A stretch of DNA of 20,179 nucleotides, taken from Candidatus Heimdallarchaeota archaeon (GTDB lineage Archaea; Asgardarchaeota; Heimdallarchaeia; Heimdallarchaeales; Heimdallarchaeaceae). The position numbers and the translations under genes are program-made. The notes below the pieces were generated by a model, which saw only the letters and a program-made list of their open reading frames with translations, made no database searches and was not told the DNA's origin. Below, piece by piece: positions 1 through 368 of the stretch. Positions within the stretch are counted from its first letter, which is position 1, and the number at the start of each line of letters is the position of its first letter. The stretch spans positions 1 to 20,179 of the forward strand of contig JABCTC010000055.1 in the NCBI GenBank assembly GCA_018238545.1, in the 5' to 3' direction.

Positions 1-68
1 AATCTATTTTCCTTACTTTTGCCTAGTAAGGTCAGAGATACATCTGGATGCGTTCCAGATGGTCGGGA

Positions 69-138
69 AAGTTAAGTCCTTCCACGTAGAGCTTGGTACT
101 ATGTTTCGAGAGAACTTGGGAACAGCTACTCGTTGCGA
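69..138 (+). rRNA. 5S rRNA 3' portion: loop B 3' side, helix II 3' strand, helix V, loop E, helix IV, loop D and helix I 3' strand.
   Basis: Conserved elements: aagttaag (69-76), tccttccac (77-85), ggtact (95-100), loop-D-like cgaga (107-111) and gggaac (118-123). 99-106 pairs with 112-119 (7 of 8, one U-U). gtag (86-89) pairs with ctac (126-129). The string closely parallels archaeal 5S sequences such as ...GGAAGUUAAG...GUACU...CGAGA...GGGAA... Confidence 0.7.
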
Positions 139-142
139 TTCG

Positions 143-190
143 TCGCGGCCATAGTGAAGGGGTAACACTCAGACTCATTCCGAACCTGAA
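143..190 (+). rRNA. 5S rRNA 5' portion: helix I 5' strand, loop A, helix II 5' strand, helix III and loop C.
   Basis: The sequence tcgcggc-catag-tgaagggg-taacac-tcag-actcattccgaac-ctga-aa matches the archaeal 5S consensus (GGCC/UCAUAG ... ACUCAUUUCGAACC). tcag (169-172) pairs with ctga (186-189) to close loop C. tgaagggg can pair with tccttcca (77-84) as helix II. Confidence 0.7.
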
Positions 191-368
191 ATCCTTGCTA
201 GGTTTTTTACGTTTACTTAACAAATTCTTTCATAGATTTACATGTATTTCTTCTCTAAATCCTTCTAAGACGTTTTTTGACCTGTCTTTTTTCCCTTTGA
301 TTCTATCAGACATAAAATTTAAAAATAAGGAATTAACTTTCGACTCGGTCTGGACAGAAGAGGTTGTT

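What the first reader, a model, noticed from the sequence alone, without database searches (positions are those of the whole stretch)
21..208. 5S rRNA gene with circularly permuted order: the canonical ends are joined by a UUCG-capped helix I and the new ends are clamped by a 10-bp stem
**Seen directly**
- The 5S 3' part comes first on the + strand, at 69-138. It carries aagttaag, helix II 3' strand tccttccac, ggtact/gggaac loop-E halves, helix IV 99-106/112-119 and loop D cgaga.
- The 5S 5' part follows at 143-190. It carries helix I strand tcgcggc, loop A catag, helix II strand tgaagggg, and tcag-actcattccgaac-ctga (helix III and loop C).
- The two parts together span 69-190, which is 122 nt, a normal 5S length.
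- The canonical 3' and 5' ends are connected by ttcg (139-142). This loop caps a 7-bp helix I (132-138/143-149, two G-U pairs).
- The new termini fall in the loop B region between helix III and helix II.
- The flanks pair there: 22-31 cctagtaagg pairs with 193-202 ccttgctagg. T6 follows immediately.
- Neither half has a colinear partner. Nothing 5S-like follows 190, and the sequence upstream of 69 cannot form helix I with 130-138.

**Established knowledge**
- Permuted or circularised stable RNAs exist in Archaea: permuted tRNAs, a permuted SRP RNA, circular pre-rRNA intermediates and a permuted 23S.
- I know of no described archaeal permuted 5S.

**Inference**
- The locus encodes a functional permuted 5S.
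- It could act as a linear molecule with a terminal clamp.
- Alternatively it could be processed or circularised.
Basis: partly seen in the sequence, partly recalled or inferred. Interest (0 to 1): 0.85.

Follow-up and report, generated by a model that had tools for sequence, protein, structure and literature searches.

The report
Circularly permuted 5S rRNA gene
The 5S ribosomal RNA gene of this Heimdall-group Asgard archaeon, and of about 45 related genomes, is written back to front, which explains why no 5S gene could be found in these close relatives of eukaryotes and suggests their ribosomes carry a re-joined, probably circular, 5S RNA.

Summary

- **Order in the window:** window 71-138 is the 3' two-thirds of a 5S rRNA. 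A UUCG loop (139-142) caps helix I, and 143-189 is the 5' third.
- **Rfam:** the 5S model finds only two sub-threshold halves, in swapped order.
- **Re-permutation test:** a covariance model built from 44 re-permuted sequences matches canonical archaeal 5S genes end to end (115-119 bits) and E. coli rrfH (48 bits).
- **Distribution:** 50 loci from about 45 Heimdallarchaeota/Hodarchaeota assemblies and 19 metagenome contigs share the order. These include closed genomes whose authors could not predict a 5S gene.
- **Canonical-order copy:** none was found.
- **Covariation:** all five 5S helices, the helix I cap and the leader-trailer stem show compensatory changes.
- **Transcript ends:** a TATA-like box 29 nt upstream and the T-run place the transcript ends at the clamp.
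- **Processing signal:** next to the clamp, a leader segment pairs with the helix III 3' strand to form a 4-bp helix, followed by a conserved 3-nt trailer bulge. This resembles a bulge-helix-bulge site.

I infer that the splicing endonuclease cuts there and RtcB ligates the ends. That would restore the canonical loop B and give a circular 5S. This step was not tested. I found no description of this in the literature I could search.

The parts
21..31 (+). Leader strand of the terminal leader-trailer helix (the clamp) and probable start of the primary transcript.
   Evidence: It pairs with 193-203. In 27 relatives, 9 of 10 pairs show compensatory changes and 95.9% of cells are paired. A TATA-like TT[AC]AAAA box starts 29 (+/-1) nt upstream of G21 in 22 of 22 related loci. 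In this window the box lies just off the 5' end (L001 378-384).
32..35 (+). Leader UCAG directly after the clamp: candidate H1 for the central 4-bp helix of a bulge-helix-bulge site, pairing with 186-189.
   Evidence: It is part of the minimum-free-energy fold. It is 94.4% paired in 27 relatives, with one compensatory change; 6 of 27 have a mismatch at the first pair.
41..61 (+). Leader hairpin: 8-bp stem 41-48/54-61 with loop UGCGU.
   Evidence: It is 97.2% paired, and 4 of 8 pairs show compensatory changes. It is absent at this position in the Hod-like and third groups. Between paralogues in one genome it diverges far more than the 5S core.
64..67 (+). Leader CGGG directly before AAA-GUUAAG: candidate H2 for the central 4-bp helix, pairing with CCUG at 185-188. 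It corresponds in position to the leader CCGG/CUGG/CCAG of the other groups.
   Evidence: It is 100% paired in 27 relatives, with only G-U/A-U variation. In the other groups the equivalent leader segment is complementary to the helix III 3' strand, not identical to it. L024 shows CUGG/CCAG in place of CCGG/CCGG.
68..70 (+). AAA: candidate 5' bulge. The predicted endonuclease cut falls between 69 and 70 in the H2 register.
   Evidence: This is inference from the standard cut rule (2 nt after the central helix). The product CCUGAA|AGUUAAG equals canonical 5S spacing.
71..138 (+). The 3' two-thirds of the 5S rRNA: loop B 3' side, helix II 3' strand (77-85), helix V (88-93/124-129), loop E, helix IV (99-107/112-119), loop D (108-111), and helix I 3' strand (132-138).
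   Evidence: Rfam gives a partial hit to the 3' part of model RF00001 (about positions 47-120). R1 gives a hit to model 25-117. Helices are 90-100% paired with compensatory changes.
139..142 (+). UUCG tetraloop joining the canonical 3' and 5' ends of the 5S and capping helix I.
   Evidence: The cap is 3-5 nt (7 in one locus) in all 50 loci (UNCG, AUU, GUU, UUU and others). The 7-8 bp helix I below it changes by compensatory substitutions: GYUGCGA/UCGCGGC, GCUGAGU/GCUCGGC, GCUGAAG/CUUCGGC, GCUGCAU/AUGCGGU, GCUGUGAU/AUCACGGU.
143..189 (+). The 5' third of the 5S rRNA: helix I 5' strand (143-149), loop A, helix II 5' strand (154-161), loop B, helix III (169-172/186-189), and loop C (173-185).
   Evidence: Rfam gives a partial hit to model 27-51. 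R1 gives a hit from 143. Covariation is shown.
190..192 (+). Trailer 3-nt bulge (AAU) between the helix III 3' strand and the clamp. The predicted 3' cut is after A190 or A191.
   Evidence: Positions 190-191 are invariant A in 27 relatives, while 192 varies (U/A/G). The equivalent bulge is an invariant AAA in 15 Hod-like loci.
193..203 (+). Trailer strand of the clamp.
   Evidence: It pairs with 21-31. In the strain variant L002, the T27-G197 wobble becomes a T-A pair if the leader T27 is unchanged; L002 starts downstream of position 27, so this cannot be seen directly.
203..208 (+). T6 run: probable archaeal transcription terminator.
   Evidence: The T-run is seen directly in the sequence. 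A T-rich run follows the clamp in most related loci. That it terminates transcription is inferred from established knowledge of archaeal oligo-T terminators.

Best explanation
**What it is.** This is the functional 5S rRNA gene of a Heimdall-group Asgard archaeon, encoded in circularly permuted order.

**Transcription (inferred from motifs).** Transcription starts at about position 21, about 26 nt downstream of a conserved TATA-like box. It stops in the T-run at 203-208.

**Order of the transcript (shown).**
- The transcript carries the 3' two-thirds of the 5S first (71-138).
- A UUCG tetraloop then permanently closes helix I, where a normal 5S has its ends.
- The 5' third follows (143-189).
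- The break therefore lies in loop B, between helix III and helix II.

**Precursor structure (shown by covariation).**
- The two ends of the transcript pair into a 10-11 bp leader-trailer helix.
- Next to it, a short leader segment pairs with the helix III 3' strand. In this window the candidates are 32-35 or 64-67.
- This makes a 4-bp helix followed by a 3-nt trailer bulge. The arrangement resembles the bulge-helix-bulge sites cut by the archaeal tRNA-splicing endonuclease.

**Maturation (inferred, not tested).**
- The endonuclease cuts 2 nt after the 4-bp helix on each strand.
- RtcB then joins the two 5S ends. This restores the canonical loop B sequence (...CCGAAC-CUGA-AA-GUUAAG...) and releases the helix III strand so that helix III can form.
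- The product would be a covalently closed 5S RNA of about 121 nt.
- If the 32-35 register is used, the product would be 154 nt and would keep the leader hairpin.

**Confidence by step.**
- About 0.93 that this is the real, functional 5S gene in permuted order.
- About 0.55 that maturation goes through endonuclease cleavage and ligation to a circle.
For: **It is a 5S RNA in permuted order**
- Rfam gives swapped partial hits.
- The re-permuted alignment folds into the canonical 5S structure, with 24 of 35 pairs compensatory.
- Model R1 hits canonical 5S genes full length at 119.4, 115.5 and 48.2 bits. Native genes give only half hits of 22-58 bits.

**It is conserved and is the only detectable 5S**
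- 50 loci from about 45 assemblies share the order, with 1-2 copies per genome.
- 19 of 19 metagenome contigs carrying this 5' half are permuted, and the canonical-order junction gave 0 hits.
- Rfam finds no 5S in 15 Heimdall loci but finds it in the two control loci.
- The authors of the closed genomes CP084166/CP084167 could not predict a 5S gene (PMC8813620).

**The structure is under selection**
- The native fold plus clamp plus hairpin is 97.1% paired. 29 of 53 pairs are compensatory, and 0 of 500 shuffles reach the observed values.

**Transcript ends**
- A TATA-like box sits at -29 in 22 of 22 loci, and a T-run follows the clamp.

**Processing signal**
- The leader-trailer helix abuts a 4-bp helix and a 3-nt trailer bulge in all three sequence groups, although the sequences differ.
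- The leader segment is complementary to the helix III 3' strand, not a copy of it. It changes together with that strand in L024 and L021.
- The first two bulge bases are invariant and the third varies.
- Applying the standard cut rule gives exactly the canonical CCGG-AA-GUUAAG junction in the Hod-like group, and CUGA-AA-GUUAAG here in the H2 register.
- Leader and trailer diverge much faster than the core between paralogues: 37-83% identity against 93-97%.

**Precedents**
- The permuted SRP RNA of Thermoproteus is circularised at a leader-trailer bulge-helix-bulge site (PMC4731332).
- An engineered E. coli 5S with helix I closed by a tetraloop works in ribosomes (PMC7283268).
Against: - No RNA data were available. 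Expression, the transcript ends and any ligation are all inferred.
- The second (leader) bulge and the inner flanking helix are not canonical. In the Hod-like group the inner helix is only GUU/AAC after a 2-nt bulge, and 7 of 15 loci have an A-C mismatch in the 4-bp helix.
- In the window's group two registers compete (32-35 or 64-67). Neither covariation nor folding energies (-60.5 against -56.1 kcal/mol) decide between them.
- The register that gives the canonical product is separated from the clamp by the leader hairpin. This makes a three-way junction, not a textbook site.
- A permuted 5S does not strictly need ligation to fold.
- I did not test whether the splicing endonuclease and RtcB are present in these genomes.
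- I could not scan whole genomes, so absence of a canonical 5S rests on the published statement and on partial sequence.
- One Heimdall-related MAG (Kariarchaeum pelagius) is reported to have a 5S gene.
Confidence: 0.55

Rival explanations
1. The gene is functional and permuted, but the mature RNA stays linear. The primary transcript, or a lightly trimmed form, enters the ribosome with its ends in loop B held together by the leader-trailer helix. No ligation takes place.
For: - The clamp is strongly conserved by covariation.
- The clamp sits exactly at the predicted transcript ends.
- A mature-like fold with the clamp is within 2 kcal/mol of the minimum free energy.
- Brown-algal mitochondrial 5S RNAs are permuted in the final product (PMC4267664).
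- The leader hairpin is also conserved by covariation, which would fit a retained element.
Against: - A leader segment complementary to the helix III 3' strand would compete with helix III and has no role in a linear product. Yet it is kept in all three groups and co-varies.
- The 3-nt trailer bulge, invariant at its first two bases, is unexplained.
- Leader and trailer diverge between paralogues in the same cell far more than the core does.
- The clamp plus hairpin would add about 50 nt at loop B.
Confidence: 0.28
2. The transcript is circularised as in the main explanation. The circle is then re-opened in the helix I cap loop to give a canonical linear 5S, as happens with permuted tRNA genes.
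For: - Permuted tRNA genes mature through a circular intermediate that is re-cut at the canonical ends (cited in PMC4267664, and PMC10085705).
- Archaeal 16S and 23S circles are re-opened (PMC12918454).
Against: - The cap is only 3-5 nt (7 in one locus) and is often an extra-stable UNCG tetraloop. That looks like a permanent structural cap, not a processing spacer.
- No conserved sequence or structure around the cap suggests a nuclease site.
- No enzyme is known to define 5S ends in such a loop.
Confidence: 0.1
3. The locus is a rearranged 5S pseudogene, a 5S-derived non-ribosomal RNA, or an assembly artefact. The real 5S would lie elsewhere.
For: - Rfam gives no hit at its gathering score.
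- I could not scan whole genomes.
Against: - The same order is seen in 72 independent contigs.
- All helices are kept by compensatory change, and all universal loop motifs are intact.
- A conserved promoter-like box and a terminator flank the locus.
- No canonical-order copy was found in 510 kb of related DNA or in the metagenome collection.
- The authors of the closed genomes found no 5S.
Confidence: 0.03

Closest known systems
Canonical archaeal 5S rRNA (Rfam RF00001)
   Same: - It has the same five helices and the same loop motifs: CCGAAC in loop C, AGUUAAG, and GUAC/GGGAA in loop E.
- Its length is the same, about 117-121 nt.
- A model built from the re-permuted sequences scores canonical Thermoplasmata 5S at 115-119 bits.
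   Different: - The gene order is circularly permuted.
- Helix I is closed by a loop.
- The ends lie in loop B, flanked by a leader-trailer helix.
- It is an independent transcription unit, not linked to 16S or 23S in the loci examined.
- It fails the Rfam gathering score.
Permuted, circular SRP RNA of Thermoproteus (Plagens et al. 2015, PMC4731332)
   Same: - The gene of a universal structured RNA could not be found because it is permuted.
- There is a short leader after a TATA box.
- Leader and trailer pair into a site with a 4-bp helix and a 3-nt bulge.
- Ligation restores a functionally important loop.
   Different: - It is a different RNA, in a different phylum.
- There, circular junction reads and endonuclease cleavage were shown experimentally. 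Here both are inferred.
- Here the feature spans a large clade rather than a single genus.
Permuted mitochondrial 5S rRNA of brown algae (mtPerm-5S, Valach et al. 2014, PMC4267664)
   Same: It is a 5S rRNA whose domain order departs from the canonical one and that generic models miss.
   Different: - In the algae, helix I is replaced by a 5' hairpin and the ends lie at the junction of the alpha and gamma domains. The RNA stays linear.
- Here helix I is intact and capped, and the break is in loop B of the beta domain.
- This is a cytoplasmic ribosome, not an organellar one.
- No mtPerm-5S match was listed.
Engineered circularly permuted 5S (cp5S) in E. coli (Huang et al. 2020, PMC7283268)
   Same: The native ends are joined by a 4-nt connector that closes helix I, and the resulting ribosomes are active.
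   Different: - It is artificial.
- The new ends were placed in loop C or loop D and tethered into 23S rRNA. They are not in loop B, and the RNA is not free-standing.
Permuted tRNA genes (Cyanidioschyzon, Thermofilum) and circular pre-16S/23S rRNA intermediates
   Same: The splicing endonuclease and ligase act on leader-trailer bulge-helix-bulge sites and produce circles.
   Different: - Those circles are intermediates that are re-opened at the canonical ends.
- Here the tight 3-5 nt cap argues for a lasting closure of helix I.

Membership tests
5S rRNA (RF00001) | A three-way junction of helices I-V supported by covariation. | tested here: met
   After re-permutation, RNAalifold predicts 35 pairs, 24 of them with compensatory change. 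In native order the structure is 97.1% paired.
5S rRNA (RF00001) | The conserved loop motifs, and recognition of genuine 5S genes by the same profile. | tested here: met
   R1 hits L038 at 119.4 bits, L012 at 115.5 bits and E. coli rrfH at 48.2 bits, all full length. L012 and L038 are RF00001 hits at about 100 bits.
5S rRNA (RF00001) | Colinear 5'-to-3' order with the ends at helix I, and a score above the Rfam gathering score. | tested here: not met
   There is no gathering hit in the window or in 15 related loci. Two partial hits appear in swapped order.
5S rRNA (RF00001) | It is the 5S present in the organism's ribosomes, with no other 5S gene. | tested here: inconclusive
   No canonical copy was found in 510 kb of related loci or in the metagenome scan. 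The authors of the closed genomes found none. Whole genomes and ribosomes could not be examined.
Permuted archaeal RNA genes matured at a leader-trailer bulge-helix-bulge site (Thermoproteus SRP RNA type) | The leader and trailer pair next to the new ends. | tested here: met
   In the clamp, 9 of 10 pairs are compensatory in 27 loci. In 15 Hod-like loci, 5 of 9 pairs are compensatory.
Permuted archaeal RNA genes matured at a leader-trailer bulge-helix-bulge site (Thermoproteus SRP RNA type) | A central 4-bp helix flanked by at least one 3-nt bulge. | tested here: met
   The trailer bulge is AAN or AUN in all groups. The 4-bp helix is 88-100% paired.
Permuted archaeal RNA genes matured at a leader-trailer bulge-helix-bulge site (Thermoproteus SRP RNA type) | A second 3-nt bulge and an inner flanking helix (the full canonical motif). 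| tested here: inconclusive
   The leader bulge is 2-4 nt depending on register. The inner helix is at most GUU/AAC, or is replaced by the leader hairpin.
Permuted archaeal RNA genes matured at a leader-trailer bulge-helix-bulge site (Thermoproteus SRP RNA type) | Cleavage by the splicing endonuclease, and circular junction reads. | not testable with these tools
   No RNA-seq data or enzymology were available.
mtPerm-5S (brown-algal mitochondrial permuted 5S) | Helix I is replaced by a 5' hairpin, with the ends at the alpha/gamma junction. | tested here: not met
   Helix I is intact with both canonical strands (132-138/143-149) and the ends are in loop B.

The most novel reading that the evidence does not exclude
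Heimdall-group Asgard archaea, the closest known prokaryotic relatives of eukaryotes, build their cytoplasmic ribosomes with a covalently circular 5S rRNA. It would be made from a permuted gene by the tRNA-splicing endonuclease and RtcB. The permutation would be a shared derived character of a large part of this clade. It could then serve as a rare genomic change for testing where eukaryotes, which have a canonical 5S, branch relative to Hodarchaeales and Heimdallarchaeaceae.
Probability: 0.45. Interest if true: 0.95.

Novelty: new variant of a known kind. Interest (0 to 1): 0.88.

Why it matters
**It solves a practical puzzle.** 5S genes are "missing" from Heimdall-group genomes, including two closed ones (PMC8813620). 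Standard tools (Rfam/Infernal, RNAmmer) cannot see a permuted gene. These MAGs would therefore fail the 5S criterion for high-quality drafts. A permuted covariance model would fix the annotation.

**It would be a first for 5S.** 5S rRNA is regarded as essentially constant in cellular ribosomes. In what I could search, the only natural permuted 5S is in organelles. A free-living clade with a permuted, and perhaps circular, 5S would be the first such case. It would extend the moonlighting of the tRNA-splicing machinery to a third universal RNA.

**It bears on the origin of eukaryotes.**
- The permutation is shared by divergent groups labelled Heimdallarchaeota and Hodarchaeota, whereas eukaryotes have a colinear 5S.
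- The character is therefore a discrete marker for the debated position of eukaryotes within or beside this clade.
- Reversal through a circular RNA is conceivable, and I did not map the distribution fully.

**It poses a testable question.** How do uL18, uL5 and the assembly factors handle a 5S that has no free helix I ends?

Tried and rejected
- **Direct Rfam test not possible.** I replaced this with the reciprocal test: a model built from re-permuted sequences, searched against canonical genes.
- **Two false positives.** Two of the 52 pattern hits (L012, L038, Thermoplasmata) were canonical 5S genes with a chance CCGAAC downstream. I removed them and used them as controls.
- **Leader segment as a duplication relic: rejected.** I asked whether the leader segment before AAGUUAAG is a leftover copy of the helix III 3' strand from a tandem duplication. 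It is complementary to that strand, not identical: CCAG against CUGG, UCAG against CUGA, and CUGG against CCAG in L024.
- **Leader hairpin as a self-contained intron in the primary transcript: rejected.** The 4-nt segments flanking the hairpin (AGAG and GUCG) do not pair (by inspection).
- **Two-step scheme: not excluded.** A first circle of 154 nt, followed by removal of a 33-nt piece using the hairpin as flanking helix, works for the window. In several relatives it meets 1-2 mismatches next to the 4-bp helix.
- **Pairing of 63-68 with loop C (178-183): rejected.** It appears in the minimum-free-energy fold but is broken in the 10 relatives that have ACAGG.
- **Choosing between the two registers: inconclusive.** Neither folding energies nor covariation decided between them.
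- **Literature searches.** Searches for a described archaeal permuted or circular 5S gene found nothing relevant.
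Full report
**1. The observation**

- aagttaag is at 69-76, and the helix II 3' strand is at 77-85.
- The loop E halves are ggtact (95-100) and gggaac (118-123).
- Helix IV with loop D lies at 99-119.
- Helix I is 7 bp (132-138/143-149, two G-U pairs), capped by ttcg at 139-142.
- Loop A is catag.
- The helix II 5' strand is at 154-161.
- Helix III and loop C (tcag-actcattccgaac-ctga) span 169-189.
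- The flanking stem is 10 bp (22-31/193-202), extended to 11 bp by G21-U203.
- T6 is at 203-208.

Rfam's 5S model gives nothing at its gathering score. At a lax threshold it gives two partial matches in swapped order:
- the 3' part of the model (listed as positions 22-120, really aligned from about 47) at window 1-141, with the true alignment over 64-141 (17.2 bits);
- model positions 27-51 at window 167-191 (13.6 bits).

No tRNA gene and no other Rfam family is present in the window.

**2. The source and its relatives**

The neighbouring radical-SAM gene is found, identical, on three public contigs. Two of these cover the locus, with the same 5S arrangement.
- L001 is from assembly GCA_018238645.1 and extends 386 nt further upstream.
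- L002 is a JGI metagenome contig that begins inside the 5S.
- L003 is a 2-kb contig that ends before the locus.

I then wrote a DNA pattern that can only match the permuted order: AGTTAAG...GTACT...GGGAA...TYCCGAAC.
- It matched once in the window and never in 100 shuffles.
- It matched 52 loci in the collection of one genome per species.
- Two hits (L012, L038, Thermoplasmata) are canonical 5S genes with a chance downstream match.
- The other 50 are permuted genes from about 45 assemblies. Nearly all are labelled Heimdallarchaeota or Hodarchaeota.
- They include the closed genomes of Ca. Heimdallarchaeum aukensis and Ca. H. endolithica, with two copies each, and three chromosome-level MAGs.

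The 50 loci fall into three sequence groups:
- the window's group;
- a Hod-like group;
- a small third group (L026-L028).

**3. Is it really a 5S?**

For 44 distinct sequences I joined the 5' part to the 3' part in silico and dropped the cap loop.
- RNAalifold folds this alignment into the textbook 5S three-way junction. It predicts 35 pairs, and 24 of them keep pairing through changes on both sides.
- A covariance model built from it (R1) was searched against genuine colinear genes.
- R1 matches the two Thermoplasmata 5S genes end to end at 119.4 and 115.5 bits. These genes are RF00001 hits at about 100 bits.
- R1 matches E. coli rrfH end to end at 48.2 bits.
- The native window gives only two adjacent half matches, of 40.6 and 30.0 bits.

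**4. Is there a normal 5S elsewhere?**
- R1 searched over 71 related loci (510 kb) finds only pairs of half matches of 22-58 bits. It finds no colinear copy.
- Rfam finds no 5S in 15 related 8-kb loci.
- A scan of 241 million metagenome records for the colinear junction of this group's 5S found nothing.
- The same 5' half alone occurs on 19 contigs, and all 19 are in permuted order.
- Wu et al. [quoted passage not shown]

I could not scan whole genomes myself, so absence is strongly suggested but not proven. One preprint lists a 5S gene for a Kariarchaeum MAG. The permutation may therefore not cover every Heimdall-related lineage.

**5. Structure in native order**

*Helix I cap.* In all 50 loci helix I is closed by a loop of 3-5 nt (7 in one locus): UUCG, UGCG, UACG, UAUG, AUU, GUU, UUU, ACUU, ACG, AAUUA and others. 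The stem below changes by compensatory substitution: GYUGCGA/UCGCGGC, GUUGCGC/GCGCGGC, GCUGCAU/AUGCGGU, GCUGAGU/GCUCGGC, GCUGGGU/ACCCGGC, GCUGAAG/CUUCGGC and GCUGUGAU/AUCACGGU.

*Whole native fold.* I tested the 5S fold plus clamp plus leader hairpin on 27 native sequences of the window's group.
- 97.1% of cells are paired.
- 29 of 53 pairs have changes on both sides.
- No shuffle out of 500 reaches the observed values.
- Sliding the partners by 1-3 columns drops pairing to 27-46%.

*Individual elements.*
- The clamp has compensatory changes at 9 of 10 pairs.

**6. Transcript ends**
- In 22 of 22 loci of the window's group, a TT[AC]AAAA box starts 29 (+/-1) nt before the first G of the clamp. 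In the window's own species it lies at L001 378-384, just outside the window.
- From established knowledge, archaeal TATA boxes are centred about 26 nt upstream of the start site. That places the start at about window 21.
- The T-run directly after the clamp is the usual archaeal terminator signal.
- The clamp is therefore formed by the two extremities of the primary transcript. This is inference from motifs.
- No 16S or 23S gene lies within the 8-kb loci examined, so the gene is an independent unit.

**7. A splicing-type processing site**

Directly inside the leader-trailer helix, all three groups show the same architecture with different sequences.
- The trailer reads: helix III 3' strand (CUGA, CCGG, CCAG or CUGG), then three unpaired bases (AAN or AUN), then the outer helix.
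- The leader reads: outer helix, then four bases complementary to that helix III strand (UCAG, CCGG, CUGG or CCAG), then two to four unpaired bases, then GUUAAG.
- The leader segment is the complement of the helix III 3' strand, not a copy of it. It is therefore not a relic of a tandem duplication.
- In L024 the helix III 5' strand, its 3' strand and the leader segment have all changed together: CUGG, CCAG, CUGG.

In 15 Hod-like loci:
- the outer helix is 91% paired, with 5 of 9 pairs compensatory;
- the 4-bp helix is 88% paired;
- the bulge AAA is invariant.

A 4-bp helix flanked by at least one 3-nt bulge, next to a leader-trailer stem, is how Plagens et al. define the bulge-helix-bulge site. 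At such a site the Thermoproteus permuted SRP RNA is cut by the tRNA-splicing endonuclease and circularised (PMC4731332).

I then applied the standard cut position, after the second bulge base on each strand. This rule comes from my own knowledge of pre-tRNA splicing and was not tested here.
- In the Hod-like group, the two 5S ends join as ...CCGAAC-CCGG-AA|G-UUAAG...
- That is exactly the canonical 5S sequence and spacing (compare the alignments).
- The two retained bulge bases are invariant, while the discarded third base varies.

**8. The window's group has two registers**

| Register | Pairing | Support | Predicted product |
|---|---|---|---|
| H1 | 32-35 with 186-189, directly after the clamp | Perfect helix-bulge geometry; part of the minimum-free-energy fold; 94.4% paired | Cuts at 37/38 and 191/192; a 154-nt circle that keeps the hairpin as an insertion in loop B |
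| H2 | 64-67 with 185-188, directly before AAA-GUUAAG | Corresponds in position to the other groups' leader segment; 100% paired | Cuts at 69/70 and 190/191; a 121-nt circle with the canonical CUGA-AA-GUUAAG |

- In the H2 register the leader hairpin sits between the 4-bp helix and the clamp.
- Folding energies differ by less than 5 kcal/mol.
- Between paralogues in one genome, the 5S core is 93-97% identical. The leader is only 55-83% identical and the trailer 37-56%. In Heimdallarchaeum the hairpin region is 54% identical. This fits a discarded leader better than a ribosomal expansion segment.
- I favour H2 for these reasons, but only weakly.
- A two-step route (first the 154-nt circle, then removal of 33 nt) is also possible.

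**9. Comparison with what is known**
- The only natural permuted 5S that I found described is the brown-algal mitochondrial one. It has a different topology: helix I is replaced by a 5' hairpin, the ends lie between the alpha and gamma domains, and the product is linear (PMC4267664).
- A 2023 survey of RNA permutations lists only that case for 5S (PMC10085705).
- Circular forms of normally encoded 5S have been seen in Halobacterium and Sulfolobus and were interpreted as possible degradation products (PMC12558985).
- An engineered E. coli 5S with its ends joined by a tetraloop is functional (PMC7283268). A capped helix I is therefore compatible with the ribosome.
- Searches combining 5S with Asgard, Heimdallarchae-, Hodarchae-, "permuted" or "circular" found no description of this gene. 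The library does not hold all journals.

**10. Verdict**
- The feature is a clade-wide, conserved, permuted 5S rRNA gene.
- Maturation by endonuclease cleavage and ligation to a circle is the best-supported mechanism. It remains an inference, at about 0.55.
- The main rival is a linear clamped molecule, at about 0.28.

Noticed in passing
window 5282-9139 (+): The gyrase A gene carries an intein with a LAGLIDADG homing-endonuclease domain. It directly follows gyrB (3223-5325), and the two reading frames overlap as listed.
   Followed up: partly
window 12200-17884 (-): There is a cluster for a group-4-type membrane-bound [NiFe] hydrogenase or complex-I-like module: a 20-kDa subunit, a ferredoxin-like ORF, a 49-kDa/NiFe large subunit and a 30-kDa subunit. 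A HycI-type maturation protease is also present, and an ORF at 16109-17212 looks like HypD by eye.
   Followed up: partly
window 10090-10719 (-): This ORF has no Pfam match. It contains tandem acidic, proline-rich repeats (QSAEPEETAQP, three times).
   Followed up: no
window 18903-20000: G+C rises to 0.44 in the last kilobase, against about 0.35 elsewhere. The ORF at 18903-19544 looks like a TetR-type regulator by eye. It may be foreign DNA.
   Followed up: no
window 209-216, and the same place in related loci: The motif ACGTTTAC directly after the T-run is conserved in most loci of the window's group. Its role is unknown.
   Followed up: no
L002 1-120: A JGI metagenome contig of the same species starts inside the 5S gene, and several other loci (L013, L020, L030) also end or begin within it. 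The 5S copies seem to break assemblies, as repeats do.
   Followed up: no
L041 6822-6893, L017 6779-6862, L033 7422-7505, L022 5530-5617: tRNA genes lie within about 150-300 nt of the permuted 5S in both Heimdallarchaeum genomes. Some of these matches are 84-88 nt long, which suggests introns or long variable arms.
   Followed up: no
L018 (labelled Thorarchaeota) and L036 (labelled Hermodarchaeota): These loci carry permuted 5S genes nearly identical to those of Heimdall/Hod MAGs. This points to mis-binning or mislabelling rather than a wider distribution.
   Followed up: no
L027 2661-2715: There is a borderline Rfam match to a C/D-box snoRNA family (SNORD36, 31.4 bits against a threshold of 30). 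It may be an archaeal C/D box sRNA.
   Followed up: no
window 369-716 (+) and 728-1405 (-): The genes next to the 5S are a DUF5752 protein and an OB-fold/RPA_C protein that resembles a replication protein A subunit. The same neighbours occur in L001 and L002.
   Followed up: partly
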